Positions 6,001 to 25,300 of a DNA stretch of 64,000 nt are shown piece after piece. Below the pieces are notes generated by a model. That model made no database searches, had not been told where the DNA came from, and was given only the letters and a program-made list of their open reading frames with translations. Source of the DNA: an uncultured Mollicutes bacterium (lineage in GTDB: Bacteria; Bacillota_I; Bacilli_A; Acholeplasmatales; Anaeroplasmataceae); contig UQGR01000001.1 of NCBI GenBank assembly GCA_900540705.1, positions 90,062 to 154,061 on the forward strand, given 5' to 3'. Position numbers and translations under genes: made by a program. How positions within the stretch are numbered: the first letter of the stretch is position 1; the number at the start of each line of letters is the position of its first letter.

Positions 6001-9000
6001 CCAATTAGAGCCATCTAGACTATAATATACTACAGCGCTAAATTTTGGTGATAGGACATTAATTTCATAGGTATGACTCATACTTGTGTATTGTACAGTC
6101 CAGTAATCATCCTGACCATCTGTATCTAATGTCGCTGGATCTTCGTAAACAATAATTAAAGGATTAATCTTAATGGTAACATAATCTATTACAGTTTTGA
6201 AGTATTCTGCACGAATCATATAGTAGAGCTTATACTCCCCTGGATCTGCAAAAACAGGAGCCTTTTCTAACCAACCTGAAGAATTTGCAGAAAGGGAGGA
6301 GGTACTATAGAATACCTCGTAATCAGGGGTAAAGGCTGGATAATAATCAGCACCAGATGGATATAGAACGTCTACTGTTCCTGTATGGAAGTTTCCATCG
6401 TAATCCCCTTCATAGCCTGTCGCATTATAGCGGAATTCAAGTGGTAATATCTCGTATTCTGCTGTAAATACTAATAAGTAATTATCAGAAACTATAGAAT
6501 TATCCACATCGTAATAAATTGTCCACTTTGGTGACCAAATAAAGCTAAAGGTTCCAGTACGATCAGAAGAATAAATTCCTGGAATGAAATCAGAGGTTTG
6601 AACCATACCAGTAAATTCATCACCCGGCAATAATCCCTCATCTGGATTTTCGTCAGTTCGAACTAAATCTGTGGTCAGAGGTGTAAAGGTATACGGATCA
6701 CGGTCAAAGACCTTACTACCTGAAATCGTAATATTTAATCTTCTCTTACTAATTTCAAAGTAATGTAACTCGTTATACTCATTAAAATACTGACCCTCTG
6801 GGGCATAAATTCTTACAGAATAGTTTCCTACATTGGCAGGAGCCTCTGATAATTCATTACCTCTTGCATCATAGTATGTGAACGTCAAATTCAAAAGTTG
6901 ATCTTGACCAATCTTTAAAATCTTTCCATCCTCTACAGGATTTACAGGTTCACGGTCATAAACCTTAGAAAGGTCACCAACCCTAACATTACTCTTGACA
7001 GTTTTAATTCGAATATTCTTAAGTTCTGTATCAAAGTGGCGTCCAGAGATTTGAACTGCAAATACATACTCATTAATCTCCTGGAAGGTTGGATAGTCAT
7101 CTCCAAAGGAGGAACCATCATCCTTATAATACCTTACCTTATATTCTGGATAGTTGTTCATATAAGCCGTCCAGTCTTCTACGCTCAGCTTATACCACTG
7201 ACCATCAACCTCATACTGTACAAACTCATAATAACGAATATTTCCATCATTTACCTCTTCCATAGTAGTAGGATGAACAATATAATCTGGATTTCTTAAG
7301 GAATCATAATCCTGATCATCTACACCTATAAAGTAGGTTAAATTAAATTTGTTGTATTCAATTTGGATACGTCCATTAACGACAACATCGTAGTATTCTG
7401 TTTCATCGGAAAGCCCTAACGTCGGGTTATAAATACAGAATGGCTTTGCCGCACTAGCTGTATAATTCACTACAAAAGAACCATTTTGGTAATAGAAGGA
7501 TACATCCTTCCAAGTAAGATAGGACTCAGCTGTCTCATTAAAGAGATGCCCACTCGTCTTGGAATCTAAAGTATATGGCAATTTTGCATCTCCTGAGGTA
7601 GCCAATGTACCAACAAATCTTGAGTTAGCACCTAAGCCTACCATATAAGTTCTATCATTATTTGGATGATCTGGATCTGTAGGCTTTGCCTTTGGATCTA
7701 CACCCCAAGTATGTGCCCAGTAATCCTCCTTAGGACCAATGGTATAAGTCGTATCAAATGTAATATTGATACGTCCCTTGGTAACACGATATGCCGCTCT
7801 TACACCCTCAATTACATTGCTTGGGCCTAATACGACAGTTGGTGTATAAAGAGAACCATCCTCATTCCGAGCCTTTAACTTGTAGTTATTAGCTTGGGAT
7901 GGAGAAATATAAGCATAAATCAAGTAGGTTCCATAGGTTCCATTAGCTCCATATGGGTAAGTACCAACCTGGGATGGATCCTGATGAGCTGTTACGATTG
8001 TACAGTTAGGTACATAGGTTCCACCATTTATTTTTTTAGCAACAGCATAAGGCTGAATATTGCCACCAATGTAAGGATAGTACACTAACGGAAGCTTTGT
8101 TCCATTATCATCTGTATATGGATTTGGATCGACATCTACTAGCTGATATACTCCATTGATTGGTTGGTTATATTTCGTCCATACGATTTCTACATCCATT
8201 GGAGTAATCTTAACCATATAGGTTACAACCAATTCAAAGTTATTAGATATGTCTGCTCCACGCAAGGTTACCTTCCATGGGGTTGACCAAATTAAAGTAT
8301 TTGAGGCATAAAGACCTGCGTTTGCAGAAGGGGTACGAAGTGTACCAGTAAATACCGCATTCGTAAAGCCTTCTAAGCCTAAAATCTGAGAAGATAGCCA
8401 TGTATTATAGGAATATACCTCACCATCATATTCTTTTTCTACTAAGAAGCCACTTACAGCATGAACCTCAATCAAGCTCTTGGCAATTGTATAATGTAAT
8501 ACAGTTGTTCCTGTAAATAATAATGGATGCTCCGTATCAAAAGTCTCTTCTGCTAACTGACGATTATATTCACGTAAGGCATCATTATCAACACCAACAT
8601 TGATAGTTGCAGTACCTACATTGACATTATTGCTATAGGCGGTTGTAAATACAGTCGTATAGAAATCCTCAATAAACATGATGTTAGATTCTATACCTAA
8701 GCCTTCATTCTCAAATAATTCACCTGGCAGTTGAACTCTTACAAGGTTCTGAATGATAGGACCACTTGTATAGTGATTGTCATGCTGAGATAATGTGTAC
8801 TTAAAGGTATTAATCTTTAAATATGGAACATTATAGGTTACACCTGTACCATACTGCCAGTAATCCTTATAATATAGTACACCACCAGAAGTCCAATATC
8901 TCTGATCCCAAGAATTTTCACCATCGACTGCATAGCAAACTCCATCTATTGGATTTGCCTCAAATGGCTTCCAGCCCTTGACTTTACTGAAAATATTGAC

Positions 9001-12000
9001 TCTTCTATTTTCTTTTTCAGTATCTGTTGCTAAAGGATTCTTCTTTAGCCATTCAATATATTCAGCCTCTAAAGTAGCTGAGCTATTATTATAAATTGCA
9101 GTCACTTCTGCTCTAGTTAGCTCAGTATAAATATCTACACGTGCTCCAGTAGCAAATGGGTCTCCAACAATCTTTGTAACGGATCTTGGTAAAATAACCT
9201 TAGAGATTCCAACCTGACTCTTAATCGGCTTAGCACCAGCGTCTGCATCCTCTTGGGTTACTCTTGATTCATCAATACCAACAACCTGAATACCATTATG
9301 AGTCGTAGGAATGGTAATAATACCACTTAAATTAGCATTTGGAGTCAAACCAGTAATATAGAATTTTCTTTCTGTCTGATCATATACATAAGTATAAACA
9401 TCATCATCAATAGAGCCCAATACATATACTGGATAATCACAGTTCCAGTTATTTACCCAGCCCTTTGACCAGTTCTCTTCTGGCTCATATACATAGAAGA
9501 AGAAATTATCATTACAGCCAATCCATCCTTCTGGATTGATGGTTGTCGTTTCTCTTGGTATTGTCATATATTCAATACCTGTACAACCTTGGAATGCTCC
9601 CTTATCAATCGTCTTTAAGGTTTGAGTAAACTTAAAGTCCTCTAATGAGCGACAATTTTTAAAGGCATAAGGTCCAATATAGCTTGTAGATTCATCATAG
9701 ACAAAACCATGATTTGCTTCTGTATCCCATAAAAGATTTACGCAACCTGAGAAAATTCCTTCTGGAATAGAGAAAATTCCTGTAAAATCAATTCCCTCTA
9801 GACTAGTACAATTTTGGAACATGTACTTTGTAACGTGCTTGTTCGCTTCAAGATTTACATCACTCAAATATTGACAACCACTAAAGATACCATCGCCAAT
9901 ATTAGAACCCAATCTCGCAGGAAGGGATACCTTTTCAATTTGTAAACAATTTGCAAAGGCATAAGAACCAATACTATCAAAATTTTCTAAGTGAATTTCA
10001 TGCTTTGGATCCTTAAAGCCAATAGAGGTTCCTGCAAAGGAGTAAGCCCCTAGAGTGCGAAGTGTATCTGGTGTAAAATCCTCAATAGCTTGAACCTTCT
10101 GACAATTGTAGAAGGCATAATTTCCAGCATGCGTAAAGCTTGCATTTGGATAATTTACACGTGATAGGTTCACACAGTTTGCAAACGCATTATTACCTAA
10201 AATATTAATATATGCATCGTAGAAGTCTACGGAGGTTAAGCTTGAGCATCCTGCAAAGGCATGATCGAATACCTTATTTGACATGTTTGCTTCTGCTCTT
10301 CCTGGAGCTCCTACCTTCACTGATTTTAAATTATTAGGTATATAGAAAGTTGTATTATATTGATATGCTCCATAAGAACCACCATAGGCGTCATGACCAA
10401 AAATATAGCCTAAAACATGGGAACTTCCAGCATTACCATTTTTATTTAAATCATGGCCAATATAAGGAATCGTCAATTCCTGTAAGCCAGAACAACCATA
10501 GAAGGAATATTCCTCTATACTACTAGGTAGATTTGTAATTGATATACTTTCTAAGCTTCTAAAGTTTCTAAAAGAATATGTACCAATGATTGTTTCATCA
10601 GTAACGGTTAAGCTCTTTAAGGTTTGAGGGATATATCTAATATAGCTATCATAATATCTAAACGTATTATTTTCATAGGTTCCTGTATGAGGGGTACTAG
10701 AGAATAACCATTGTACAGAGTTTCTCCAAGCCTTATCTCTCCACCACCACCATGGACGATAGAACTCTCCACGCTCACATCCCGTAAACGGAATAGTTAA
10801 GCTGGTTAGGTTTTGATTGTTATAGAAGATGGAGGAACCCATATAAAGGGTATTCTTACCAATCTCAACATTCTCTAGCTTAGTACAGTTATGGAATACT
10901 GCACCTGAGACATCAGGCTGGTTTGTAATAGATACCGTCGTCAAAGTTCCAGGAACACGAGCTGATCCACTCGTTGCTAAGCTTCCATCAAACTCTGCAC
11001 CATAGAATAGATTACCTAAATGGGATCCTACAGACGAAATCTGTAAGCTCTGAAGATTAGCCATACCATTCATACAGCCAGTTGCTATATTTGAACCAAC
11101 CTCAGGATTGATAGTCAAGTTCACAACAGATTTTAATCCCTGTAAACAGCCTGTAGATAATACAGTCTCCTTACGAACGGTAACATCTGTTAATGTATTT
11201 GGGATTTGGAAAGTGAAGCTTCCACCACTATAGGATTGTTCTGCTGAGTAGAAATCCTCCTTACCACCCTGCTGGCCAAACAGCCAACCAAATAGACCAT
11301 GATATTCTGTTCTGGCACCCATATTGTCTGTCTGACATTTGTCTGTACAATTTCCACTATGAGCACCAACAAATGGAATAACCATTTTTTTCAATTTTGT
11401 ACATCCACCAAAAGCGGAATACCCAATAGATGTAACACTCTCTGGAATAGATAAATCGTATAAATTCTGACAATTCTCAAAGGCATTCTTACCAATCTTA
11501 GTTAAGGCAGCTGGGAAGTTAAAATCATAAGAGCTTCTTAATACCTGACCTGCAGCTAAATCTGCCTCATAATCGCCTGTTATTCCAGCACTACTATTAC
11601 CACTATATAAAACTATTTTTTCTAAAGACTGACAATCCTTGAAGGCGCCATCATTAATTTCTTTAATACTTGCAGGCATATATAATTCTTTTAAGTTGAT
11701 TGCCTGATATAAGAATGAAGTTGGAATACTCTCTAAAGCTGGAGGTAAAATCAACTTCTCAAGAGACTGACATGTATTAAAGGTTCCTTCTCCGAAAGAA
11801 ACATTCATCTTAGTAGGTAATATAACTTCCTTTAATTCTTGACACTCTGAAAATGCCATCTTACCAAAAGCAAAAGAGGAGCTCTTAAAATCAGGAATCT
11901 CAATATGACGGGCCGTACATCCTGTAAAAGCATTATTTCCTATCTTAGTATCATCTGTTACAATAATCCACTGTAGACTTCTTGGAATCAAATATTGGAA

Positions 12001-12888
12001 GGTAGGAGATTGATTTGATATTTCAGCCCATAATACCTCATACAGCTTGGCATTTGCCTTTTCTGTAGGAGTTAAATCTGAGATATCTCTCTGTTGGTAA
12101 TGATCAAAGGCTTCAATAGAACTTACGTTACCAGCATTATAAGCTCCTACACCATCCCACTTTAACCAGAAGTTGGTTGATTTGTCAGTGCTCCATGCAC
12201 CAGTTAAAGCCACATTAATATCAAATGGCTCACCAAACATAGATGCAAAGCAATCACTGGTTGGCTTTGTTTTTCCGCCATTCTGCATAACCTGAGCAAG
12301 AGAATAATTCATACCTGTTCCTGAGGAACCACGAGAGGTTCCAACAAAAGGCATCTTTAAATATTCAAGGTTCGCGAAACTATTTAAGGAACCTGTCGTC
12401 ACATATTTTACGGAATCAGGAATTACAATCGCTTTAATAAAATGATAGATTGTATAATTCTTCATTGGTTGATTACGTAAATCTACACCAACAACCTTAT
12501 CTCCAGTCGCATAGCTTTCAGGAATAACCAAGGATGGATGCTGGGTTAGATATTGAGCAAAGGAAACACTATTCCAATAAGAACTGGTCATATCAATACC
12601 TGTAAACCAACGTCCTGCAGTTTTCCCATCTGGCGCATCTGCTGCCGTATTATAAACCGTATACTTGAACAAGGTAGTATCGATTTGCTTATTCGTCTCT
12701 AGCAAAGCATCAAAATAAGCCTGGTCATACGTAGTTGTCGTACTATCCAAATTGGATTTGTTATCATCCTTATTTGGACTTACAGTCAAACTTAAAACTG
12801 TAATGACTAAAATCGAAGCCAATGCAATTGACCCAAATATAACCGATAGTAGTCGCCATTTTCCTTTCTGATTTAAATTTTTAAGCAT
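1..12888 (-). CDS. Giant BspA-type LRR cell-surface protein, partial (3' end beyond window; at least 4296 aa in-window). N-terminal signal peptide (MLKNLNQKGKWRLLSVIFGSIALASILVITVLSLTV), LRR region about 9430..12400 with 'PFVG...LFGWLFG' insertions, a 'GW..NNWN' cap near 9430..9600, then Ig-like 'YD[GR]' repeats (e.g. KVYDREPVNPVEDGK at about 6900..6980)
   Basis: I translated the minus strand by hand from ATG 12888 down to about 10680 and sampled at 9420-9690, 6900-7080 and 1-120. I found no stop codons and clear LRR consensus (e.g. LGNNAFANCVNLSRVNYPNA at about 10140..10200). The ORF track lists no complete ORF in this frame, which fits an ORF that runs off the window edge with no internal stop. 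Confidence 0.85.
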   Translation of the reverse strand, partial: MLKNLNQKGKWRLLSVIFGSIALASILVITVLSLTVSPNKDDNKSNLDSTTTTYDQAYFDALLETNKQIDTTLFKYTVYNTAADAPDGKTAGRWFTGIDMTSSYWNSVSFAQYLTQHPSLVIPESYATGDKVVGVDLRNQPMKNYTIYHFIKAIVIPDSVKYVTTGSLNSFANLEYLKMPFVGTSRGSSGTGMNYSLAQVMQNGGKTKPTSDCFASMFGEPFDINVALTGAWSTDKSTNFWLKWDGVGAYNAGNVSSIEAFDHYQQRDISDLTPTEKANAKLYEVLWAEISNQSPTFQYLIPRSLQWIIVTDDTKIGNNAFTGCTARHIEIPDFKSSSFAFGKMAFSECQELKEVILPTKMNVSFGEGTFNTCQSLEKLILPPALESIPTSFLYQAINLKELYMPASIKEINDGAFKDCQSLEKIVLYSGNSSAGITGDYEADLAAGQVLRSSYDFNFPAALTKIGKNAFENCQNLYDLSIPESVTSIGYSAFGGCTKLKKMVIPFVGAHSGNCTDKCQTDNMGARTEYHGLFGWLFGQQGGKEDFYSAEQSYSGGSFTFQIPNTLTDVTVRKETVLSTGCLQGLKSVVNLTINPEVGSNIATGCMNGMANLQSLQISSVGSHLGNLFYGAEFDGSLATSGSARVPGTLTTVSITNQPDVSGAVFHNCTKLENVEIGKNTLYMGSSIFYNNQNLTSLTIPFTGCERGEFYRPWWWWRDKAWRNSVQWLFSSTPHTGTYENNTFRYYDSYIRYIPQTLKSLTVTDETIIGTYSFRNFRSLESISITNLPSSIEEYSFYGCSGLQELTIPYIGHDLNKNGNAGSSHVLGYIFGHDAYGGSYGAYQYNTTFYIPNNLKSVKVGAPGRAEANMSNKVFDHAFAGCSSLTSVDFYDAYINILGNNAFANCVNLSRVNYPNASFTHAGNYAFYNCQKVQAIEDFTPDTLRTLGAYSFAGTSIGFKDPKHEIHLENFDSIGSYAFANCLQIEKVSLPARLGSNIGDGIFSGCQYLSDVNLEANKHVTKYMFQNCTSLEGIDFTGIFSIPEGIFSGCVNLLWDTEANHGFVYDESTSYIGPYAFKNCRSLEDFKFTQTLKTIDKGAFQGCTGIEYMTIPRETTTINPEGWIGCNDNFFFYVYEPEENWSKGWVNNWNCDYPVYVLGSIDDDVYTYVYDQTERKFYITGLTPNANLSGIITIPTTHNGIQVVGIDESRVTQEDADAGAKPIKSQVGISKVILPRSVTKIVGDPFATGARVDIYTELTRAEVTAIYNNSSATLEAEYIEWLKKNPLATDTEKENRRVNIFSKVKGWKPFEANPIDGVCYAVDGENSWDQRYWTSGGVLYYKDYWQYGTGVTYNVPYLKINTFKYTLSQHDNHYTSGPIIQNLVRVQLPGELFENEGLGIESNIMFIEDFYTTVFTTAYSNNVNVGTATINVGVDNDALREYNRQLAEETFDTEHPLLFTGTTVLHYTIAKSLIEVHAVSGFLVEKEYDGEVYSYNTWLSSQILGLEGFTNAVFTGTLRTPSANAGLYASNTLIWSTPWKVTLRGADISNNFELVVTYMVKITPMDVEIVWTKYNQPINGVYQLVDVDPNPYTDDNGTKLPLVYYPYIGGNIQPYAVAKKINGGTYVPNCTIVTAHQDPSQVGTYPYGANGTYGTYLIYAYISPSQANNYKLKARNEDGSLYTPTVVLGPSNVIEGVRAAYRVTKGRINITFDTTYTIGPKEDYWAHTWGVDPKAKPTDPDHPNNDRTYMVGLGANSRFVGTLATSGDAKLPYTLDSKTSGHLFNETAESYLTWKDVSFYYQNGSFVVNYTASAAKPFCIYNPTLGLSDETEYYDVVVNGRIQIEYNKFNLTYFIGVDDQDYDSLRNPDYIVHPTTMEEVNDGNIRYYEFVQYEVDGQWYKLSVEDWTAYMNNYPEYKVRYYKDDGSSFGDDYPTFQEINEYVFAVQISGRHFDTELKNIRIKTVKSNVRVGDLSKVYDREPVNPVEDGKILKIGQDQLLNLTFTYYDARGNELSEAPANVGNYSVRIYAPEGQYFNEYNELHYFEISKRRLNITISGSKVFDRDPYTFTPLTTDLVRTDENPDEGLLPGDEFTGMVQTSDFIPGIYSSDRTGTFSFIWSPKWTIYYDVDNSIVSDNYLLVFTAEYEILPLEFRYNATGYEGDYDGNFHTGTVDVLYPSGADYYPAFTPDYEVFYSTSSLSANSSGWLEKAPVFADPGEYKLYYMIRAEYFKTVIDYVTIKINPLIIVYEDPATLDTDGQDDYWTVQYTSMSHTYEINVLSPKFSAVVYYSLDGSNWTTEAPLFIDYGEYDVYYRIEAPYHETVGPVHRIVRIKINLDDEDPEGTGKEFEDTDYTISFFRGEYDGQPHSLEAAFTNPDAFDWTNILYSVDNRKTWTKEKPSYTELGKYLVSVKFAAAGYKDLVIQGYIEITGMLLDVEPVPYEGVFDGEYHMVGLRAKTGTLRYDADAKIYYYDNGRGTGEVALKFSYTTNPNLTNGTSGWLPTVAVVDGVAQVRGFKDVGTYAVYVMLEAENFETEIFDEYTTLTITKLLNPAISMDSPQLFMYSKAPLDGSKIVIDTVADGARAYYYYSAYKVGAEYKYDEPMNRINPPQELGVYYVEIRVAASKNCGPCSVTGYIEIVPRVLEIQYTNPQYYDGTLKTPEAYVETGTSDIIHVITSVQGNRQPIEVGTYIFDVFMVENNPNYVLASNTIEMEIRKRNVLFALEEEHLLKDAYEPWVETDSEYYDKSAQCGDNKWHLLGDLSGTRTVYIDGEEKTVTYSGLANNHILYAELETNKGVRGSYFYSTISNEFYINRVQVKDFNIYQGDANGNYVLDDNDEKISVLEYYDVDYDLLITLVNPDVDLDDVLILDEYDYDGLAHTIQISLPGYLNGGFVRYENNGNYGSVPPKYINVGEYKINYMVGANGFEDTYGTATLKIRPAELSILVGDMYKVGDETKTKHDIYDDTPHINPYELKNILSSPMPKATHMKYYDASVYTYDEILKLYQAFDAESEIYADGLDRLVEAGNYFCVVYYAEDVLRWKTSYAIVNVELKPRDIFITIHETNDYVKTYDGTKISIPLTNAEIDTTNTATSGLVLGHTLDTSANAKKFYTVQTNSADAGVYDLKTQFEFGAIDIRTSSGKMVNSKNYHPVILGNFHVEILKAYLRDGDFTVEDYKEKVYDGYRHEPDYTCISDGELIIKYYDYDGETGNKTPLLGDQKNAGLYLLEVSVGEGKNYHSLFDSYSTFDADGNRYFSKEFLEAKILCHKLEVEVQWEAEEQTFTGSKLDIKPYIIDNETDHENATRVDLLPKYWDNVNFDWVDTVINAGNYLTLAGFDTTTLAGQTYDRNYTLTNTDSLFTILMLELRIQLGDGGASNTITYYNTQTPWRTNLFKTNTAGAAEILSDTDFIKNWIPTITISSLADESQPAYVVAKDYRPGTYKGDQFDISCVIRNKDGVEITDSINFEIIGTVIVKSDEIDFEVKDVTLPYKEVKNSSVIGYTFNELQCLTVKNPKSGYTVSGFEVNGVSYGAQFPNLSQAGEYEIDFDVIAPGYTAVRGHVNVTITQFPAYMTFNRNLGKVYDGSPVDVSKLIATSASGFNGSVSDLVFTYTEFVYDNGTYNEVQLDSAPTDVGRYKVHIVSSKDEPDATNLNYTTLDVTQEFSITAKQVNLVIDEDKEIMNDESLGKPWDSGLIQLNSGKNPGISSGDLLQYQITTDSFERGEFTASQILKYIEGSDKHNGSSVKTFTTESGKQFTIAWRFVQTDDKGNIIYNEVINPDYNPTDSSTGDETIQMVVDQSKNYLINLTFKMKVHYPYIPVEIEGYEGVYDGEEHSGTIEFSDYTSADNKYSFSADWFRTNATQMYARSQQNIDNGIDVYSDINDFKFADPGSYTIYYKIMVGPGVADIKFEPYIGSYVIQIDRLERTVTTEPMGKEYDTLPAGVIKGGTIDRYFPDFTVTHADENIPDDYTIDQIEIVYKQAGSTTAISSEEGCIRSGAYVYTMRIPQTKYYKESVVQENFVISKVKIYIEDAAIGGPVYAYDGWVKNVPVTENTTRYQIGTRTDKDAPLDLLANQGLTFNATLVTRGNHIGTYKGIDDTLTLLNYEFTVVDLTGEDVSVNYLVDIKGATITIDPIDIQYKINHPEHIYDNQFHEFSFLVSNPSDMSLVTVEWFDDFTGQWTTTPIKKRDVGEYKVTIRLSSSNYKSVELELPMTIVRAQTVIEYVSSLNRVYDGNEVTMPEIIKTNRDQAGEGNIKDRYTYKYYGKDDQGNFLPQPMYTQYYDEDKGQVIGSGD

Positions 12889-13310: not shown

Positions 13311-13348
13311 ACAAAAAAAACAGCCCTATTCTTTACGAATAGGACTAT
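13311..13348 (-). terminator. Rho-independent terminator of gene A
   Basis: Immediately after stop TAA (13357..13355), the minus strand reads AGUCCUAUUC-GUAAA-GAAUAGGGCU (10-bp stem) followed by GUUUUUUUU. Confidence 0.75.
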
Positions 13349-13354
13349 TTCTTT

Positions 13355-16300
13355 TTAGATACGATTTAGCATTTCAACTAGATCGCTGTTTGTAACAAGA
13401 CCATCATTATCCATATCTGCAGCTGCATAATACTCATAAGATAGGTTACCCATTCCAGAAACGAAGTTCTGTAATTGCATGAAGTCTGGCGTGATTACCA
13501 TACCATCACCATCTAAGTCACCATTTACAGCAACATAGATGATATCCTTCGTTGCAGCACCTTCCTTAAGTAGGATGCGGTAGCCTGTTCCAATATAGGT
13601 TGTAGCAAATGCATTGGCATTAACCTTTGCATTTCTATTGTTGTATACTAGTACAGACTGACCTTCCTGAAGATTGAAATTATTCAAGAAGTCTTGGATT
13701 GTAGTTTGTTCTTCTACATTTCTTACAACAACTCTCTGAGAAGACTTATAAACCTTATGTGGATCCTTAACTAAGGTTGTTGCATTCTTTGCAACTAGGA
13801 ATTCATAATTAGAATCCTCCTTGATTGTGAATACGGTAAGCTTAATCTTGAAGGTAATCTCAAGTTCGCCTGTATAGTTTCCACAACCTGTTACACGAAT
13901 GATGGCATTAGAACTTGCTTCTACGTTATTTTCATAAGTAACAGTGTAGTCCTTACCTAATACAAGTGTCTTTCCAAAGAAGGAAATTGTTGGAGTAGGT
14001 GTAATTGCCTTACCTGTGTAATTTTGATCCTTAATCTCACTAACCTTTGCAGAAGATATATCTGCTGCAGTAACTCTAACTGTAACATGAGCATCCTCTG
14101 TGCTGGTTGTGGTTGAGCCATCCTCTAATACGATTCTCCACTTATAGTTATCCTTGTCATTTAATACAAGAGTTACATCATAAGTACCTACATTTAAGAC
14201 AGTAGACTGACTAGGTGTATAGAAGTCATTGTAATCAAGGGAGATTTCACGACCAGTAAATTCTCTTACGATTTCCTCTGGTACATCTATTACACGATAA
14301 TCAATAGAATAAGCGAAGGTTGGGTTCACAAGTTTATAGTTCGTATTTGTTGTTGTTGCTGTAGCTGTATAAAGACCACGGTTGATAGATTCATCATTTG
14401 CAGTTACGACTACATCGATTGGATCCTTTAAGGATACTAATACATATGCCTTAGGCATTTGAACTAAGCCATTATAGAAGAATAAATTAGAAGACCATGT
14501 TAGAGTGATTTCTCTTACGGATATTTCAAATTCAAATTCCTTAGAAATAGCTAAGTAGTTTGTACCTTCTGCAATCTCTATTAGAACCTTATACTTACCA
14601 ACTGTAATTGCACCTTCTACTTCTTCATATTCACCTGAAGCATTTTGCTTGAACCAGTGATATGCGGCAACACCATCAGTATTAGAACTATATAGAGGCT
14701 CTTTTACTGCGAAACCATCATAATCCTTAGATAAATCTTCAGAAACAACGATTTCATTAGCATCAATCTTATGGATTGTAACCTCAGCTGAACCTTCTAC
14801 CTCTTCAAAGTTAGCAAAGACAACCTTATAGTAAATTGTATATGTTCCACAATCGCTATAGCGAATTGGACTCAATTGATAATTCTTACCATCAGCACTA
14901 TATAGAACCTGATACTGAACAGAAACGCCCTCTTCTAATACAGGTCTTGGATTGATTGTATAGGCCTGACCAGTATAATCAACCTCATAGCTGTTGCAAG
15001 TAACCTCAATCTTAGCTGGCTTAATGTATACATTCATAAATACATCTACGATGTAATTCTTAGTGATATCCTGACCATGTTCATCTCTAACAATCAAATC
15101 AGAAATATCAAAATGATTGTTATTGATATAGGTACCCTGGTTACCAGTAATTGTATGAATCATACCCTCAACTGTTAAGCCTGGTCTTGGATCCTGTACT
15201 AAGCTTACACCATTGACATTGTAGAATGCAAATTCACCTTCGCCAATCCACTCCTTGATGATTTCTGCCTTTAGAATTGAGAAGTTACTTGCATCAATAC
15301 TGAAGCGTTCACCATCATAATTCTTCATGAATTCAGCAGATAAATCACCGAAGAAGATATGCTTCTTTAATACTTGAATTGTATAATGCTTAGAATCATA
15401 TGCTTTGTAATTATCACTTTCAGAAACATGGAATTGAACTGTATACTCACCAGAATCTATGATGGATGAAACTGCACCATCTGCATTATAGAAGGAGTAG
15501 CTTACTGCCCCATTTCCAATTACCTCATAAAGGATGTCGGCAAAGACCTTAGAATCGGTTTGCTTAGCAGCGATGGTCAACGCTGTACCATCATATACCT
15601 TAGTAAAGTCATACTGGGCATCAGCCATATTATTTACCTTGATATCACTTTCAGCCTTTTCTATCTCAAAGTCAAATGTCTTATGAGTTTCTGCATAGTT
15701 TGCAGATTGACATACGACAACCTCTATCTGATATCTACCAGCATTCACTGGTGCATATCCTAAGTAAGAGCCATCCTGATAATAGTTGATAAATACAGTT
15801 AGACCAAGCTCATCAAACTCTGGTGTATTATATTGTGTACCGAAGATGGAAAGCTCTGGGAAGATTTGAACTCCGTCATAGATCTTATCCAGTTCATTTA
15901 TCAACTCAATTTCATAATTCTTTCTCTTGATGGTAATGGTTAAGGTATCCCTTACCGTTTCATGTCCCTCTAGGATAATTTCATAGTCAAGCTTGTATAC
16001 TCCTGCCTCAACATATTCTAACACTTCCATCAAAACAATACAGTTATCAGGATCTGTCAATACAATTAATTCAGGAACTAAAGCCTCACCATCATATTCT
16101 TTTTCATATTGGTAATGGTTATTGACTAAGGTAGCATCCTTAAATTCATACTCAATTCTTGGAAGGTGAACCTCAAGATACATACTATAGTTAATGTTGA
16201 AGCAAGAAGTAACATCCTCACCATCCATAAGGATAGCAAGATTTGTAACAACTACATCACCAATACTATCATAAATCATACCACGAATACGCTTTTCAGC

Positions 16301-19300
16301 TGGCAGATAGAATTCAAATAAAATCGTATGATTTTCAAGTAAATCTTCTACCTCATCTACCACTACCTCATAGTTATGCTCTGTATCAGCTAATACATCA
16401 ACATCAGCATAGCTTAGGTTGAAGGTATAAGGCTTAATTGTATAGGTGTAGGTGTCATTTAAGGTTCCGAAATTTGGATATCCCTCTGGAAGCTTAGCAG
16501 TAGCTGTATAGGTTCCTGCTAAAATAGAACCATCTTCAACCTCAACAATTAATTCAATCCGATTGCCATCTAAATCTGTAGTGAATGCACTTGGCGTTTG
16601 AACAGTACCATTATAGATGTACTGATCTTCTACCTCCCACTCAACATATAATTCAGTAGCTGCAATCTCAAATTCAAATTCTTTTTCTGTCGTTAAATAG
16701 TATTCATTTCCTTCAACACAGATTACAACCAAATATTTACCAACCTCTGATGGATTAGAAATTGGAGTATCTAAATCATCTAGACTATAGAAAGTAAATG
16801 TCGTATTTTCTGCGGTTGAAGCTACAGAAGAAATCACAATTGGATTTAATACTGCATCACCTGTATACTGTTGCTTTAAGTAGCTAGATAGAATCTCAAT
16901 ATTCATATAGTTTCTTTCAATTTCATATTCAAATGTCTCGATGAAGCCATAATAATTTTGAGTATCTTCTACTGTTATTTCAACTGTATAAACACCAATT
17001 TCAAACGTAGATAATGTCTGAACACCATTCTTGTAGAACTTAATCTTAGAAGGTGCAGAAATAGGAGAAATACTATACTCAATCGCAATATCCTTACCAT
17101 CAAACTTCTTACCATGCATTGCATCTGGATTTGTAAACTCAATGGATAATTGAATTGGACGAATCACAAAATGAATGGTTCCGGTAGTCATTTCATAGTT
17201 AGGAGCTGTAATGATATATGTAATCTCTAAATCTACTGCGGAACGATAATCAAATGGAGTTACAGAGGTTGCATTATTTGCACGATAGGATACTTGAGCA
17301 CCAGGAACGTCTGTTAAAACGACTGCCTTATGCATTAATGCATCGTAATCGTAAGAAACCTCCCATACACCATCAACTAACGTACCATCTAAAACCGTAT
17401 GCTCAATTAGTGGGTTGGTAATAACAATATTAAACTGATATGTTAAATCAAAGTTGCTTAATACACTTTGACCTTCTGCATTTAGAATATCAACACCCTC
17501 CGCAACTAGATGTGTACCAAATCTATTGTATACACCAACGGTAGCTGCAGTTGTTGTCACATATCCAACAAAATACATACCCTCTGGTAGAAGCTCGTTA
17601 AAGTCGCTTAACTCCTTGCGGTAGTTTTCGCCTGTTATAGCCATACGCTCAGAATGTGCAAGCTTTATCTTTCTATTGATGATTCTATAGGACTTAGAAG
17701 TAATGTTTAGACTATAGTTGCCAGACTCATCATCTAAGGACAGATTAACCATCTGATTACCTACAGAACTGCCATCATATCCCTCTGCAGGGGTTGTAAT
17801 AATTCGATAGATTCCTTCATTGTCTCCAGTTACAGAGAAGCTTGGAGCTACAAAGGAGCCAGTATACTCAAGAGTAGATGAACCACTTTCCACATTTAAT
17901 ACCTTAGTTTCAATTGTGAATTCAAACATACCCTCAAAGCTTAAGGAATTGCTGTTCTCCTCTAAGAATACACGTACCTTATATTCACCAGCATTGGTAG
18001 GAGCTGTTGGCAGCTCTACGCCAGCCTTAGTAAAGTAAGTAAATTCAGGAAGAGAATCAGAGGTTGTAAGTACCTTTGGATCAGCATAAGGAATACCATC
18101 GTATACCTTATCCTTTGCCTCTACAGTTACCTGAGGAGTCGTCTTTAGAATCTTCACTGTCATATCATAGGTGATATTGAAGTTCGCTAAACTAATTTCC
18201 TTACTCTCTAGGTAGATATGGAAGGCCTCCTTAGACATTACAATATTTCCTGCAGCGTAAGTATAGGTTGCATCTGCAACATTTGGAACTACACCAAACT
18301 TGAATTCTACATCAAGCTGCTGGTCAGCAAACATCGTAGAATATTCACCCTCATAGATATTTACCTTGTTGTAAATTCTTTCCTCATTGAACTCAATCGT
18401 AAAGTCGAATTTAGAAATAGTAAATTCAACATAGGATACAACTTCTCTATAGTTGTCATCACTATCTAATACAACCTTCAATAGCCAATTGCCGGCATTG
18501 ACAGCTGTACTATATCCTAAAATACTATAACGGTCTAGGAATGGTAGCTGTGCTAATTCTTCAGCCGTCAAATCTGTACGTTCAGGATGGAAGCTGATTC
18601 TTGGTTCAGCTGTACTACCTGTAACCGTAACCTCAGGCAGAACTGGTAAAGCATCATAAATCTTGCTTAAGGAATCGCGATTTACAACGGTAATCGTTGA
18701 GGAAGCCTTAGCAATCTTCACAGTCATCGTACCATGAACTGGCTTATAATAATCACAAGTTACAATGTAATATAGCATGTAGGTTCCTGCTTCTGTCCAA
18801 TTGCTTGGAACATTACATAAACCACCATGTACTCCAATCCAGGTTTCACCATCATAGCTATACTGGATGAAGGCATCCGCACGCTTTGCATCAATAACGA
18901 AGTTGTGGATATCGCCTGGAGTATAAACAGCTGTAAACTCACCTTCAAAGTAATTTGTACCCTCAATTAACTCCTTACGAGTCAAGTTGAATTCAGATGG
19001 TGCTGTGTCCTCAATCGTAACATCTAAGTTCGGATAAATTACTTCAATAGCCTCGCTCAATACTAAGCGATAGTTATTTGTAGTATAAATCTTCGTCGTC
19101 TGATTTTGGAACAAGTCCTCACCATCGATTGTACCCACTAGCTTTAATAATGCACTTGTATAGTCATAGAAGCCCTTTACATTAGGTACTGTGAAGAATA
19201 AATCTAAGTAATGTGTTGCATAAACAATATTATTCTTTGTTACATCCACATTACCACGGAAGCGATAGGATAGCTCTGTGATGCCATGCTTGTATTCAAG

Positions 19301-22300
19301 AACGATACTGCTTAAATCAAAGAATATATCCTCATTATCAATAATAATTGGTAATGCAAATACATCTTCTCTATAAAGTGGATTACGATAATCACGCCAC
19401 TGATAGCTATCAGAGTTTCTCAGCTTAGCATAAATCTTATATTCCTGAGCCAAAAGCTTACCATTAGTACATAAGCGTTCATAAATCTGATTTACAAAGG
19501 CTTCAACCATATGGGCAGGATCTGTTCCATAAGGAACATAAGCAATCTTATCGGTACACTCCTTATCAAAGTAATAATCATATAAATCACTGATTGTTAC
19601 ATCGATATATCTTTGATAATTGATCTTATCATACGTTAATTCTCCATAAACGAATGGTGTATCTACGGTAATCTTTTCAATTACAAATACATTAACCTCA
19701 TTCAACAAGATGTAGTTGTTAGAAGTTGTTCTTGCCTGAACAAGAAGTAAGCCTGCCATCTCAATACTTAAGGATCCGATGGTGTAATCCTGATTACATT
19801 CATAGCTTTCAACTAATGTGTTGTCATTGAATACATCCACCCAAATTGGACATGCCGTATATGGATCAAAGCCTTCCTTGACATTTACATAAGCTCTAGG
19901 CAAGATAAATCTCTTATTCTCATTAAATTCTGTCGTCATATTAGACCAGTATACCATGATTTCCTTCTTATTTACCTTAACACTTAAAGTAAATTGAACT
20001 TCATAGTTCTTTGTCAAATCCACAGAACCACGAGTAATCGTATAATTGCTTGCCCAATTGAACTGAGTTGCAAGATCAGTATAAGAGATTACATTTCCAG
20101 CTTCATCTACTAATACATCTGGTGTATTTAATCTTAATGTACCATTGAGCTGTTCACCAGCAGTTGCAAAATTGTTTACGGAAACGATTGGATTAGAAGC
20201 TGACCAATCGCTGTTCTCCCAAATGTCGCCTTCCTCGAAGGTCTTCTCGTCACTCAACTCTACCGTTAAGATACGACGAACAATCTTGAAGGAAATCTTA
20301 CGAGCATCTGGAACAAGACCAACCTCGGTATAGCCCCATCCGTAATCTACAATCTCATCGCACCATAAGGATTCATCTACCTTTAATCCAGAAACTGGAC
20401 GGTTTGTAAAGACTGCAGTATTGTTTGTAAATACATATACCCATGCATCAGAAATTACATTTCCTTCTGCATCATAGGATACATTTTCATTATTCCAGTA
20501 GTTCGCCTGATATTCTCCCTGACCGAACGTATTTGCTAAGTCATATTTTGGAAGCTTAGCATTTCCAACACGTACCGTATTTTCATTGGATTCATCAAAA
20601 CGAATGACTGGCTTAGGTAAGAATTCTTGACCAGAGTAGGTGATATAGTATCCAGTTTCTGGATCATACTCTAAGCCCTCTAAGCTATCTAGGTCAAGGC
20701 TGATATCTGTACCACTCAGCATAATCTGATAGATACTCTGATCAGCAGATAGAGTCCAAGTTACTCCATCGCCATAGTAAACTAAAGCGTCGCCACCTGA
20801 AATCCATTCCTCTTCAGGGATATAGTTTGTTTCACCCTTAACTCTAGAGACAAAGGCTACAAAGTTTTCACCACCAAGGATAATCTCTTGTCCTAAGCGT
20901 TCAATATTCTTAGAGATTGCAATACCACTAATCTCTAGCTGACTTCTATTGGTCAAATGACTATACTGAGGACTAAGCTCTGCAAAGAACTCATCTACCT
21001 TATCCGCATAATCTAATAACGCACGATCAGTGATTTCAACCACGTCATGTAAGCTTCTCTGCTCAGGGATACGTAAGATGTATCTACCAAGGCTATCTCT
21101 ATGGTTCATAATATGAATTGGTAATAATTCAGTATAACCAATAATCTTGAAGGTGCCTGTCTCATAATCATAATCATAAATGAAGATATCTGCATCCTCT
21201 TCATAGATTACAAGATACTTCGTATGCCATCTCTTAGCTACAGGAACATCTAAACCAGTTACCCAGCCATCTGGATAGCCGCCATCTCCTGTTACATCAT
21301 AGCTTGCTGTGATGAAGAATTGTTCATTCTTTTCAGGATTTTCATACATATCCTCAAATACCGCTTCATGCAGAATCTCTGCAGGCTTAGGTACATTGAT
21401 GTATCTTAAATTTGTTTCACCACTGAAGGCAGCAGTTTCTATTTCTTCAATATGATATGGAAGTTTAACGTCATATAGCGTTGTAACACCTGACATCTGA
21501 CCATTAGTAATTCTTGTGAAGACATCTAAGAACTCTACCTTTGCTAAATTACTTGGTACCCAGAAAGCCTCACCAAATACAGAAGGCGTTCCAGAAATTT
21601 CTCCATCTTCATTGATATATTGGCCAAATCCGTTCTTATCATATGCGATAGCGCCTGTTTCATCTCTAAAGGACTTCTTAACCGTTCTTCCTAAGGCTTC
21701 GTTGTAATCCTTCATAAATTGATGGATTAAGGTTGCACCCTCATAGAAGTCACGACCAAAGATAAATCCAAATAGAGACTCTGAACCAGACTGTGTAGCA
21801 TAGGCATCTGTATCTGCCGCATTAGAACCAATGAATGGTAATGTCATCTTCAATAGACCTGAACAGCCATTAAATGCAGAATAGCCAATATGCTTAACAT
21901 TCTCTGGAATATATAATTCTCTAATCTTATCATTATTACGATAAGCATAAGCCCCAATAGAGGTAACCAAAGCAGGAATTGCTAAATCACTTAAATTGGT
22001 TCCATCGAATGCATAATCCTCAATGGTAGTAATGGTTTGTGGAAGGTCAAATTCAGGTAATGCACTTGCATTCTGGAAGGTTCCTTCCTTGATTACAGCA
22101 ATTTCGCTACTTGTAAACTGAGCATCTACTAAAGCCGTACAGGAAGCAAACATATATTTACCTTCTGCAACATCCTTCATAGAAGCATGCATTTGCACCT
22201 CTTGTAGCTTCGTTGCCTCAGCAAATATATAATTTCCAAAGGAAGTTACATAAGCTGGAACAACCAAATTCATCTTATGCTGTGCCTGTTGAGTTGATCT

Positions 22301-25300
22301 GTAGAACATATGATCACTTAAAATGGTATTGTTGATTGCAATACTTTCTAAGGCATAGGTATCAGCAAACGCATAAGCACCAACATAATCCTCAAGTGTA
22401 TTCGGTAATAGGATATTTACCAATGCTTCAGCATGAGCAAATGCGTAATTACCTAAGTAGGTAATCTCTTTTAGATCTACCTTCTTCATATGGTTTGCAT
22501 TATAGAAGGCATAATGGCCAATATGAGTGGTAAGGTCGGCTAAAATCACACTTTCCATACCAACACATTCTGCAAACGCATAATCACCAATACTTGTGAT
22601 ACACTCAGGAATCACAATCGTATATTCTGTGTTCTTATTGAAATCATTTAACACATCACAGCCATAGAAGGTATATTCCTTAATCTCAGAAATTGCATCG
22701 CCAGCATATTCTACCTTAGTTAAGCTGTCATTCTCATAGAATGCATAGCTTCCTAGATAGTCTGTAGGAGTAGGAATAACCATCTCCTCAAGCTTGCGGC
22801 AACCATAGAATGCATAATCATTAATCTGGAAGGTATCCTGAGGATTTTCTCCATATTGTAAATATACATTGGTTAGACCTGCAAAGTTCATGAATGCACC
22901 ATAGCCTACTACATGATCTACATTCGTTACATAAACGGTCTTTAAAGCCTCAGGAATGTAGTATGTTTCGCTCTTGGCAGCATCGGAATACTTCTGTGGT
23001 GCTGCATAGATATTCGGGTTCTTAGAGGAAACCTTACCGAAGATGTATCCGAATAAGGATTCAGAAGAAGCCTCTGTATATTTATGACCACCAACAAATG
23101 GAACTGTAATATTGGTAAGACCTGTACATCCACCGAAGGCTGCATAGCCAATGGTTGTAACCTTATCTGGAACTACTACATTATTTAAGGAAGGATCATT
23201 AAAGAACATGTAGTTACCAATCTTGACATTGTCAATCGTAATCTCTGCTAGCTTCTCACATTCAGCAAATACATAGTCTCCTACGTTTTCACCAACTACA
23301 GAAGGAACATATAGATTCACAATGGCATCACAGTTGTAGAATGCACGATCCATCAGGTGAGTTACCTTTGCTGGTAAGTAAACCATATAGGTATCATTTG
23401 CGTTAAAGTCTGCCATCTTAACACAACCATTGAATGCAGATACACCGATATGACTTAACATGATTTCAGTTTCTGCAGTTGTATTTTCAAAGCCAACTCT
23501 AACAATTTCCTGTGCACCATAGAAGGCACTATCCTCTATCTTATATAAGCAGTAAGGTAAGGTGACATTTACTAAGGTATCACACTCATAGAATGTACCC
23601 GTATGTAGAACCTCCTGTAACCGAACCTTCACATCTGTCAATGAAATAGGGGTATCCACGATTGCCTTAGCACCAGCTAATCTCTGGTCTAACGCAACTA
23701 ATAGAGATGGACTATAGTAAGTATCTGTGCTGTCTTTACCAAAGAAATAGCCAAAGATAACACTTTCCTTATGCTGCTCAGCAGATTCACATTCTGCATA
23801 TTGCTGACGTCCTACGAATGGAACATCTAAGGATACTAAGCTACCACAGCCACCGAATACATGCTCACCAATCTCTTCTACAGCATCTGGTAAGGTTATA
23901 TCTGTCATCGCAACACAGTTGAAGAACACCTTGTCGCCTAAGGTATGGATCTTAGAGCCAAAGTTAACCTTGCCCTCTTCCTGATGATCAACAGCTAAAA
24001 CAGTCTTTAGCTTATAACAATCATAGAATAGACCTGTTGCTAGTTCTTCAATCACATCGCCCTCAAACTCTACCTTCTTCAGTTCATGACAACCCTTGAA
24101 CGCATATTCTCCTATGCTTTCTGTCGTTGCAGGAACAGCGAAGTATTCAAGCTCAATATAGCTGTCATCTAATAGCTTATTACCTAAATTCATACAGCCA
24201 GCGAAAGCGTAAGCACCAATAGAGGTGAATGGTGTTTCTACTCCATCCATCACACGCTTATCACTTAAGGTGATTGTAGTTAAGCCATCACAGTTATGGA
24301 ATGCACCATAACCAACAGCACTATCATTTGTCACATGAACAATTCTTAAAGAGGTTGGAATATAGTAGGTTTCTGCTAGATTCTCTCCATAGCTTTGAGT
24401 TGTTGCCTTGACATATGCATTTTGTGCTAAAACGGCATCACTATATTTAGATGTAGTACCAAAGATATATCCTAGTAAGGAATCTCGGCCATCTGTACTA
24501 TATGCATGACCACCAACAAATGGAATCCAAATTTCAACTAAGCTGATACAGTCTCCAAATGCGCCCTCACCAATCTCTGTTACATCTTGTGGGATTTCAA
24601 TACGATTTAATCTAGGACAGTTATAGAACTGGTGATCTCCTAGAACCTTATTTTGAATATTAACGATTCTTAATTCTGAGTTATTTGCAAAGGCATACTC
24701 ATCAATTCTTGTAACATTTGCAGGAATTGTAACCTCTCTTAACGCAGGAATATCATAATCCTCCTTCGTGATATCAAAATCAACAGGGAAGTTATCTGCA
24801 TTGTCGAACATATGAGCGCCAATCCAATGGTTCAAAATTTGGATATTTGCTAGAACATCACAGCCAGCAAATACATATGCACCTACTAAACCATCTTCTG
24901 TTGTTCCAACAGATTCTGGAATTGTAACTGCTTGAATAGAATTACAGTTTTCAAATGCGGAATCCTGTAATGCTACTACCTTAGAAGGAACAATTACACC
25001 CTCTGCATCACTATTTGAATTGAAGCGTACTAGGCTTACAGCATCCTTAAAGGCGCTGTTTCCAATATGAGTCAATTCACTTGTTGTATTGTCAGTACCA
25101 AAGTATACCGTCTTAAGGTTCTTTGTATTATAGAATGCATAATCCTCAATTACCTGTAAGGCTTCTGGTAAGACTACATTCTCTACAGAAGAAACATTAG
25201 AGAAGGTACCATAATGGATTACAATCGTATCCGTGATAGTAATATCCTTTAAGGCTTTTGGAACATAATAGCTTACAGTCTCAGATTCTAATGCACCATA

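What the first reader, a model, noticed from the sequence alone, without database searches (positions are those of the whole stretch)
13358..13531. Dockerin module at the C-terminus of a giant LRR adhesin, with no cell-wall anchor
The last 58 aa have the duplicated Ca-binding loop plus helix signature of type-I dockerins (DLDGDGMVITPD...DMDNDGLVTNSD). The tail has no LPXTG, SLH, choline-binding or other anchor. This implies the 16-kaa LRR protein is displayed by docking to a cohesin-bearing scaffoldin, the way cellulosome and amylosome components are, rather than by covalent wall attachment. That would be a cohesin-dockerin 'adhesosome' carrying BspA-type host or ligand-binding repeats instead of glycoside hydrolases. 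Gene B's C-terminus lies outside the window and may share this module.
Basis: partly seen in the sequence, partly recalled or inferred. Interest (0 to 1): 0.7.

Follow-up and report, generated by a model that had tools for sequence, protein, structure and literature searches.

The report
Dockerin tail on giant LRR adhesin
The last 56-58 residues of a 16,000-residue leucine-rich-repeat surface protein really are a dockerin, fused to a small conserved beta module, so the protein is probably tethered by a cohesin partner. Dockerin-tagged LRR proteins are already known from gut Ruminococcus, and no cohesin could be looked for in this uncultured organism.

Summary
Window 13358-13531 (minus strand) encodes the C-terminal 58 aa of a 16,135-aa ORF.

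- The tail scores above Pfam's Dockerin_1 threshold (32.9 bits against 22.9).
- With an alignment, the model has pLDDT 97.7.
- Against related strains the 58 codons show 13 synonymous and 0 non-synonymous changes.
- The whole protein has no LPXTG, SLH or other wall anchor. Its only hydrophobic segment is N-terminal.

New here: the dockerin is the second half of a conserved cassette of about 126 aa, a beta module plus the dockerin. This cassette sits at the extreme C-terminus of many large Clostridia proteins, several of them LRR_5 proteins. In one distant relative the cassette lies in the same polypeptide as a Pfam-significant cohesin.

Gene B's full-length orthologue (5,522 aa) ends in the same beta module, but its dockerin is half degenerate.

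Anchoring through a cohesin is plausible, because the order binding region, stalk, tail mirrors LPXTG adhesins. However, there is no cohesin in the window, and the organism's genome could not be reached.

Dockerin-bearing LRR proteins are already documented in R. flavefaciens and R. bromii, so this is a new member of a known kind.

The parts
13358..13525 (-). Dockerin module, residues about 16080-16135 of gene A. Ca loop 1 (DLDGDGMVITPD) is at 13484-13519 and Ca loop 2 (DMDNDGLVTNSD) at 13382-13417. The model shows three helices. The protein ends 8 residues after loop 2.
13526..13735 (-). Pre-dockerin beta module of about 70 aa (RVVVRNVEEQTTIQDFLNNF...GTGYRILLKEG...IIYVAV). Its last strand runs straight into Ca loop 1. 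Together with the dockerin it forms a cassette of about 126 aa.
13736..21265 (-). Stalk: about 2,500 aa of repeated Ig-like or MBG-like units without LRRs (boundary approximate).
   Evidence: No LRR motifs after about residue 13,500. Only sub-threshold MBG_3 and Ig-like_KY hits. Relatives with the same stalk score MBG_3. tblastn relatives lie in Clostridia MAGs.
21413..61465 (-). BspA-type leucine-rich-repeat region, about 77 LRR_5 stretches (boundaries approximate). It is interrupted at 50663-55498 by a non-LRR insert with G-x-D-G-x-G-T-x-D-D motifs.
   Evidence: Pfam LRR_5 with 26, 30 and 21 stretches in three 5,000-aa pieces, each at E = 0. Motif profile.
61532..61630 (-). Likely true start (ATG at 61630, with AGGAGG 7 nt upstream) and the N-terminal hydrophobic segment MKKIFMNTIKKGTIILSISLLVAMIGLLLG. 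This is a signal peptide or a signal anchor.
   Evidence: Sequence read. It is the only Kyte-Doolittle window above 2.0 in the protein.
13355..13357 (-). Stop codon (TAA) of gene A, directly after the dockerin.
13313..13343 (-). Terminator-like hairpin (CCTATTC-GTAAA-GAATAGG) followed by GCTG and T8 on the minus strand, 12 nt after the stop. Gene A therefore probably ends its own transcript.
   Evidence: Read.
1..12888 (-). Gene B: N-terminal TM-like segment, LRR_5 arrays, then stalk. It is cut by the window edge after 4,296 aa. Full-length orthologues are 5,522-5,536 aa. They end in the same beta module plus a half-degenerate dockerin.
   Evidence: Orthologue P0179 is 92.4% identical over 4,296 aa. 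For the tail, hhalign against the cassette profile gives prob 96.9%, E 1.8e-10, with no Pfam hit.
62014..63999 (-). Gene C (N-terminus off window): an LRR_5 protein that ends without a dockerin or any recognised anchor.

Best explanation
Gene A encodes a secreted giant BspA-type LRR adhesin. Its C-terminus is a two-part cassette: a beta module of about 70 aa fused to a Ca-binding dockerin.

**Shown**
- The last 56-58 residues are a real dockerin by family score and by predicted fold.
- The dockerin is co-conserved with the beta module as one unit.
- The dockerin's amino-acid sequence is under strong purifying selection.
- The protein has no other recognisable wall anchor.

**Inferred**
- After export, with the N-terminal hydrophobic segment acting as a signal peptide, the cassette binds a cohesin module on a cell-envelope protein in a Ca-dependent way.
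- The C-terminal end is thereby tethered non-covalently. The Ig-like stalk of about 2,500 aa holds about 13,000 aa of LRR arrays away from the cell.
- The beta module would play the stabilising role that X modules play for the cell-surface-attaching type II and type III dockerins.
- This works like the attachment arm of a cellulosome or amylosome, with an adhesin as cargo.
For: **Dockerin identity**
- Pfam 32.9 bits against a gathering score of 22.9, covering the full model.
- PDB phmmer places dockerins above EF-hand proteins.
- AF2 with a 40-sequence alignment gives pLDDT 97.7 and pTM 0.89.

**Selection**
- 13 synonymous and 0 non-synonymous differences in 58 codons against strains that are 85-97% identical overall.

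**Cassette**
- At least 41 of the top 150 HMMER hits match the whole 121-aa query.
- 37 of those 41 carry it within 24 aa of their C-terminus.
- 40 of 41 score Dockerin_1, and none shows SLH or LPXTG-anchor families among the 25 most frequent of the 28 Pfam families matched.
- The same architecture (LRR_5, stalk, cassette) recurs in P0046 (5,893 aa, architecture read by eye, not scanned) and P0064 (4,198 aa); P0037, P0043 and P0140 also scored LRR_5 with the cassette (five members of the set). P0014 (3,092 aa) has stalk plus cassette.

**Link to cohesins**
- In a Ruminococcaceae/Oscillospiraceae-type MAG, a protein of the form signal, cohesin (26.9 bits against a gathering score of 24.1), beta module, dockerin lies directly upstream of a small cassette protein.
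- A second lineage shows the same gene pair with a weaker cohesin score (18.9 bits).

**Anchor-like position**
- The only hydrophobic segment is N-terminal and there is no LPXTG anywhere.

**Established knowledge**
- X-Doc dyads tether cellulosomes to cell-envelope cohesins (PMC5141474).
- An R. bromii LRR protein's dockerin binds that organism's cohesins (PMC4611034).
Against: - No cohesin was found in genes A, B or C, or in the off-window part of gene B's orthologue.
- The rest of the genome could not be examined.
- Loop 1 has Ile at position 9, where relatives mostly have N, D, S or T. Helix 3 ends after only 8 residues.
- In four assemblies from one study, a 1-nt deletion puts a stop codon two codons before the dockerin. 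The dockerin is therefore dispensable in at least one population, unless the deletion is an assembly error.
- Gene B's dockerin has lost its second Ca loop.
- Whether the N-terminal segment is cleaved is unknown.
- The cohesin links come from relatives only 25-30% identical to this tail.
Confidence: 0.5

Rival explanations
1. Orphan dockerin. The cassette is a Ca-dependent folding or stability module, or it binds something other than a cohesin, such as wall polysaccharide, host ligand or another copy of itself. The genome has no cohesin partner, and the protein is released or held in some other way.
For: No cohesin in 64 kb or in gene B's orthologue. None of 41 cassette-bearing relatives scores a Pfam cohesin. 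One population carries a stop codon before the dockerin, and gene B's copy is half degenerate. From my own knowledge: Peer et al. 2009, cited in PMC2930009 but not held in the library, catalogued dockerin-like modules in organisms without cellulosomes.
Against: Strict amino-acid conservation of the exact dockerin surface, with 0 non-synonymous against 13 synonymous changes, fits a specific protein partner. The cassette occurs in one polypeptide with a cohesin in a relative. Pfam misses many ruminococcal cohesins (PMC13463774), so negative Pfam results are weak evidence.
Confidence: 0.27
2. Distal-tip dockerin. The N-terminal hydrophobic segment is an uncleaved membrane anchor. The dockerin then sits at the far end of the fibre and captures cohesin-bearing proteins or cells, for aggregation or cargo recruitment, rather than anchoring the adhesin.
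For: The hydrophobic segments are long, about 18 residues in gene A and about 24 in gene B, and lack a clear AXA cleavage motif. Some relatives carry the cassette near the N-terminus as well as at the C-terminus (P0037, P0043).
Against: This would place 13,000 aa of ligand-binding LRRs next to the membrane and the inert stalk outside. That is the reverse of every characterised Gram-positive adhesin layout (established knowledge). The cassette is C-terminal in 37 of 41 relatives, and those relatives lack other anchors.
Confidence: 0.18
3. Chance EF-hand-like pair: two Asp-rich loops that merely resemble a dockerin.
For: EF-hand Pfam models give weak sub-threshold hits on the same residues, and calmodulin and calcineurin B appear in the PDB list at E of about 0.005-0.05.
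Against: The Dockerin_1 score is above its curated cut-off over the full model. The predicted three-helix fold superposes on solved dockerins at 0.7-0.8 Å. The loop motif occurs only at these two places in 16,135 aa, at the canonical spacing. There are hundreds of homologous tails.
Confidence: 0.02

Closest known systems
Dockerin-bearing LRR proteins of Ruminococcus flavefaciens FD-1 and R. bromii L2-63 (PMC2930009; PMC4611034)
   Same: Signal peptide, LRR and C-terminal dockerin, with no glycoside hydrolase. In R. bromii, the dockerin of the '2x LRR' protein CBL14720.1 binds all four of that organism's cohesins on a microarray.
   Different: Those proteins are of ordinary size. Here the LRR region is about 13,000 aa, followed by a stalk of about 2,500 aa. 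A conserved beta module precedes the dockerin. No cohesin is known for this organism.
X-Doc dyads of cell-surface-attaching dockerins: C. thermocellum CipA/ScaA type II X-Doc, and R. flavefaciens CttA and ScaB X-Doc binding ScaE (PMC5141474; PDB 4iu2)
   Same: A non-catalytic module immediately N-terminal to the dockerin, predicted to pack against it as one unit (pTM 0.89). It sits at the C-terminus of a long surface protein where attachment to the cell is expected.
Type I dockerin of C. thermocellum Xyn10B/XynY (PDB 1ohz, 2ccl)
   Same: Duplicated 12-residue Ca loop plus helix. The predicted backbone matches at 0.7-0.8 Å over 54-58 residues with 26-28% identity.
   Different: The cargo is an adhesin, not an enzyme. 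The two helices are not symmetric at the recognition positions (T-P/Q-N against N-S/L-N, read from the sequence). Helix 3 is cut short by the protein's end.
LPXTG/sortase-anchored giant Gram-positive adhesins (established knowledge)
   Same: The order of parts: N-terminal signal, ligand-binding region, repetitive Ig-like stalk, C-terminal attachment device.
   Different: No LPXTG motif, no C-terminal hydrophobic stretch and no charged tail. The attachment device would be non-covalent.
R. difficilis-type 'cellulosome' with adhesion domains (PMC13463774)
   Same: A cohesin-dockerin system in a gut Firmicute whose components carry LRR, Ig-like and mucin-binding domains instead of fibre-degrading enzymes.
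   Different: There the adhesion domains are reported on the scaffoldins. Here they are on the dockerin-bearing protein. Whether the two organisms are related is unknown.

Membership tests
Dockerin (Pfam PF00404 Dockerin_1) | Score above the curated gathering threshold over most of the model | tested here: met
   32.9 bits against 22.9, profile positions 2-56 of 57, E 7.5e-8. Still 26.6-29 bits inside longer queries.
Dockerin (Pfam PF00404 Dockerin_1) | Two tandem segments, each a 12-residue EF-hand-like Ca loop (D/N at positions 1, 3, 5 and D at 12) followed by a helix, about 34 residues apart | tested here: met
   DLDGDGMVITPD at residue 16082 and DMDNDGLVTNSD at 16116. These are the only two matches in 16,135 aa. 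Position 9 of loop 1 is Ile, which is atypical.
Dockerin (Pfam PF00404 Dockerin_1) | Three-helix dockerin fold | tested here: met
Dockerin (Pfam PF00404 Dockerin_1) | Ca-dependent binding to a cohesin | not testable with these tools
   Needs recombinant protein and a candidate cohesin.
Cohesin-dockerin assembly (cellulosome/amylosome-like) | Cohesin-bearing scaffoldin encoded in the same genome | tested here: inconclusive
   None in the 64-kb window or in gene B's orthologue. The rest of the genome was unreachable. Pfam is known to miss divergent cohesins (PMC13463774).
Cohesin-dockerin assembly (cellulosome/amylosome-like) | Anchoring scaffoldin with an SLH domain, a sortase signal or a TM segment | not tested
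   No genome available.
Cohesin-dockerin assembly (cellulosome/amylosome-like) | Several dockerin-bearing proteins in one genome | tested here: inconclusive
   Gene A has a full dockerin, gene B's orthologue a half-degenerate one, and gene C none.
X-Doc modular dyad (type II / type III dockerins) | An X module immediately upstream that packs against the dockerin and is homologous to known X modules | tested here: inconclusive
BspA-type LRR surface protein (Pfam PF13306 LRR_5) | LRR_5 repeats above threshold | tested here: met
   77 stretches in gene A, E = 0 in each 5,000-aa piece.
LPXTG sortase-anchored adhesin | C-terminal LPXTG motif, hydrophobic stretch and charged tail | tested here: not met
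   No LPXTG, NPXTG or SPXTG anywhere. No C-terminal hydrophobic window.

The most novel reading that the evidence does not exclude
The beta-module-plus-dockerin cassette is an undescribed, widespread C-terminal attachment device of uncultured gut Clostridia. It would be a non-covalent counterpart of LPXTG or SLH anchoring. It would plug giant LRR/Ig adhesins, and some proteases and glycosidases, into envelope cohesins that are too divergent for sequence models to detect. That would make a true 'adhesosome', whose loss by frameshift (as in the ERR109067xx population) would switch the adhesin from cell-bound to shed.
Probability: 0.3. Interest if true: 0.6.

Novelty: new member of a known kind. 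Interest (0 to 1): 0.35.

Why it matters
If the cassette does dock onto a cohesin, then cohesin-dockerin wiring is used to mount very large host- or ligand-binding fibres, not only enzymes. It would be doing so in gut Firmicutes that have no cellulolytic lifestyle.

That would extend recent structure-based findings that cohesin-dockerin systems are much more common in gut ruminococci than sequence searches suggest (PMC13463774).

Practically, the 126-aa cassette profile (alignment A1) is a handle for finding such proteins. Pfam currently labels only the last 55 residues of it.

Tried and rejected
- **Single-sequence AF2 of the 171-aa tail.** It failed (pLDDT 36.6). Only the run with an alignment worked.
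- **GTDB representative genomes, searched with the tail.** Only distant stalk relatives in Clostridia, Lachnospiraceae and Anaerovoracaceae MAGs were found. The organism itself was not identified.
- **Word-indexed protein searches.** The tail, the window end of gene B and the cassette profile returned almost nothing beyond P0001 and short fragments.
- **Walking along the 52-kb contig that starts inside the dockerin (L006).** The exact protein is not in the collection, because the scaffold contains Ns.
- **Gene B orthologues on contigs up to 557 kb.** These were found, but at 5,522-5,536 aa they exceed the 5,000-aa look-up limit, so their neighbourhoods could not be read.
- **Both JGI metagenome scans.** The organism is absent.
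- **afdb50 fold library.** Not available.
- **Cohesin-like stretches I thought I saw by eye in P0037, P0043, P0061 and P0075.** Pfam does not support them, so I dropped the idea.
- **Peer et al. 2009 on non-cellulosomal dockerins.** Not held in the library.
- **NCBIfam.** It adds nothing for the tail or the N-termini.

Full report
**What is at the coordinates**

Window 13358-13531 on the minus strand is the last 58 codons of a single open frame, 13355-61762. The frame is 16,135 codons from the first GTG. The likely start is the ATG at 61630, which has an AGGAGG 7 nt upstream and gives about 16,091 aa. The window holds only three genes, all on the minus strand:
- Gene C (62014-63999) lacks its N-terminus.
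- Gene A is the giant ORF.
- Gene B (1-12888) lacks its C-terminus.

The G+C content is 37%.

**Is the tail a dockerin?**

Yes. Several independent lines agree.
- Pfam Dockerin_1 matches profile positions 2-56 of 57. The score is 32.9 bits (E 7.5e-8) against a gathering score of 22.9. It stays above threshold when the tail is embedded in 500-1,135 aa.
- EF-hand models hit the same residues, but below their own cut-offs.
- The Ca-loop pattern occurs exactly twice in 16,135 aa. Both copies are in the tail and lie 34 residues apart.
- The best PDB sequence matches are dockerins: 8x39, 2y3n, 5lxv, 4uyp, 3ul4, 6kg9 and 1ohz. Calmodulin-type proteins rank below them.
- A single-sequence AlphaFold run failed. 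With a 40-sequence alignment the 126-aa tail reaches pLDDT 97.7 and pTM 0.89.

**Is it maintained by selection?**

The same locus occurs in two MAGs and six metagenome contigs that are 85-97% identical in DNA. Across the 58 dockerin codons there are 13 synonymous and no non-synonymous differences. In the 309 codons upstream, pS is 0.09 and pN is 0.013.

The tail lies at the edge of a diverged patch:

| Region (window coordinates) | DNA identity to relatives |
|---|---|
| Intergenic, 13050-13350 | 70-79% |
| Cassette, 13350-13650 | 93% |
| Stalk | 97-100% |

The protein sequence of the dockerin has therefore been held constant while the DNA drifted.

One counter-observation: four assemblies from one study (ERR10906705-8) share a 1-nt deletion. 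It creates a TAA stop two codons before the first Ca loop.

**Other anchors**

None were found. There is no LPXTG-like motif in genes A, B or C. Pfam finds only LRR_5, LRR_8 and Dockerin_1 in A, and NCBIfam finds nothing in the tail. The only hydrophobic segment is N-terminal.

The order of parts in gene A is as follows:
- an N-terminal signal or anchor segment;
- about 13,000 aa of LRR_5 arrays, with a non-LRR insert at residues about 2,089-3,700;
- about 2,500 aa of Ig-like or MBG-like stalk;
- the tail.

**What the tail belongs to**

An exhaustive HMMER search with the last 121 aa gave 897 hits at E ≤ 1e-3. In at least 41 of the top 150, the match covers the whole query, not just the dockerin. 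These share a conserved beta module of about 70 aa (consensus V..TT...F...F....I.VY......GTG..I.L....D..YV.V.GD) that runs directly into Ca loop 1.

- In 37 of the 41 the cassette ends within 24 residues of the C-terminus.
- AlphaFold models the two halves as one compact body.
- Pfam has no model for the beta half.

Cargo in the 41 cassette proteins, by Pfam:

| Pfam family | Proteins |
|---|---|
| MBG_3 | 6 |
| LRR_5 | 5 (plus P0046, 5,893 aa, which I read as LRR by eye but did not scan) |
| Big_2 | 5 |
| Cadherin-like | 4 |
| Peptidase C1, Peptidase S8, GH5, CBM4_9 | 1 each |

Among the 25 most frequent of the 28 families matched, there is no SLH, no LPXTG anchor and no cohesin.

**Link to cohesins**

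The link is indirect. Two small cassette proteins from distant lineages each lie immediately downstream of a gene that encodes a signal peptide, a cohesin and a dockerin.
- In L014 the cohesin scores 26.9 bits against a gathering score of 24.1. That protein's own dockerin is preceded by the same beta module.
- In L017 the cohesin scores 18.9 bits, below threshold.

So the cassette does take part in cohesin-dockerin systems in relatives. For the organism of this window, no cohesin could be sought:
- It is not among the GTDB representative genomes.
- It is absent from JGI metagenomes.
- The long contigs that carry the locus are indexed only through proteins too long to look up.

Negative Pfam results are also weak evidence. 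Many ruminococcal cohesins are invisible to sequence methods (PMC13463774).

**Gene B**

A cluster of 88 proteins includes full-length orthologues of 5,522-5,536 aa. P0179 is 92.4% identical to the window's 4,296 aa. About 1,230 aa of gene B therefore lie outside the window.

Its tail has three parts:
- the beta module;
- an intact first loop (GDLNCDGMINSAD);
- a second repeat that is degenerate (VDRKTPKFNATT), followed by a 45-aa extension.

Pfam does not score this tail. Profile-profile comparison with the cassette alignment gives probability 96.9% and E 1.8e-10 over 86 columns.

**Mechanism**

The best-supported reading is that the cassette is the cell-proximal attachment device. The arrangement binding region, stalk, C-terminal tail is that of wall-anchored Gram-positive adhesins. 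The cassette sits where the anchor would be, and cassette proteins lack other anchors.

Adjacent modules that stabilise dockerins are a known feature of the dockerins that fix cellulosomes to the envelope (PMC5141474). I put this reading at about 0.5.

The rivals are:
- an orphan dockerin with no cohesin partner (about 0.27);
- a distal-tip dockerin on an N-terminally membrane-anchored fibre (about 0.18);
- a chance EF-hand pair (excluded).

**Comparison with what is known**

Dockerins on LRR proteins are not new.
- R. flavefaciens FD-1 has 28 LRR modules among its dockerin proteins. The authors already suggested roles in structuring the cell surface (PMC2930009).
- An R. bromii '2x LRR' dockerin binds that organism's cohesins on a microarray (PMC4611034).
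- R. difficilis scaffoldins carry LRR, Ig-like and mucin-binding domains (PMC13463774).

What is unusual here is the scale of the protein (16 kaa) and the conserved, unannotated beta module.

**Verdict**

- Observation: confirmed.
- Interpretation: partly supported.
- Novelty: a new member of a known kind.
- Interest: moderate to low (0.35).

Noticed in passing
window 13526-13735 (-): A conserved beta module of about 70 aa is fused directly to the dockerin. It is co-conserved with it in at least 41 of the top 150 HMMER hits and is predicted to form one compact unit (pTM 0.89). No Pfam model covers it. It is weakly beta-grasp-like.
   Followed up: yes
window about 13528; L007:8488-8500, L008, L010, L011: Four Logan assemblies (ERR10906705-8) share a 1-nt deletion (GTAAATGG to GTAATGG). 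It creates a TAA stop two codons before the first Ca loop and cuts the dockerin off the giant protein. This could be a real variant or a shared assembly error.
   Followed up: partly
window 13050-13650: A patch of low DNA identity to all related strains: intergenic 70-79% and cassette 93%, against 97-100% in the stalk and 95% at the start of gene B. Within the dockerin every difference is synonymous. This looks like a recombined or fast-evolving segment.
   Followed up: partly
window 50663-55498 (-), gene A residues about 2089-3700: A non-LRR insert inside the LRR region with 10 copies of a G-x-D-G-x(1-3)-G-T-x-D-D motif, embedded in Tyr-rich beta-like sequence. No Pfam match. Possibly another Ca-binding repeat.
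   Followed up: no
window 1-12888 (-) and P0179 residues 5310-5522: Gene B is about 5,525 aa in full. Its orthologues end in the same beta module with an intact first Ca loop, a degenerate second loop and a 45-aa acidic/Ser-Thr tail. The cluster has 88 members, on contigs up to 557 kb.
   Followed up: yes
P0005, P0008, P0011, P0019 and others: Proteins of 350-1,200 aa made largely of 5-11 tandem dockerin modules. For example, P0005 has 8 Dockerin_1 stretches at 261.7 bits. The purpose of such poly-dockerins is unclear.
   Followed up: no
L014:8934-10612; L017:7272-8727: A conserved gene pair occurs in two distant lineages: a signal-cohesin-dockerin protein followed by a cassette-only protein of about 200 aa. 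In L014 the first protein's dockerin also carries the beta module. The small proteins (P0166, P0157, P0158) end in a shared W-T-S-G-W motif at or near the C-terminus.
   Followed up: partly
window 13355-61762 (-): A 48.4-kb uninterrupted ORF (16,135 codons) is among the largest bacterial genes. Its 3' end, from about window 22000 to the stop, is also present in the related assemblies. Those copies are broken only by scaffold Ns, by frameshifts or by the 1-nt deletion noted above.
   Followed up: partly
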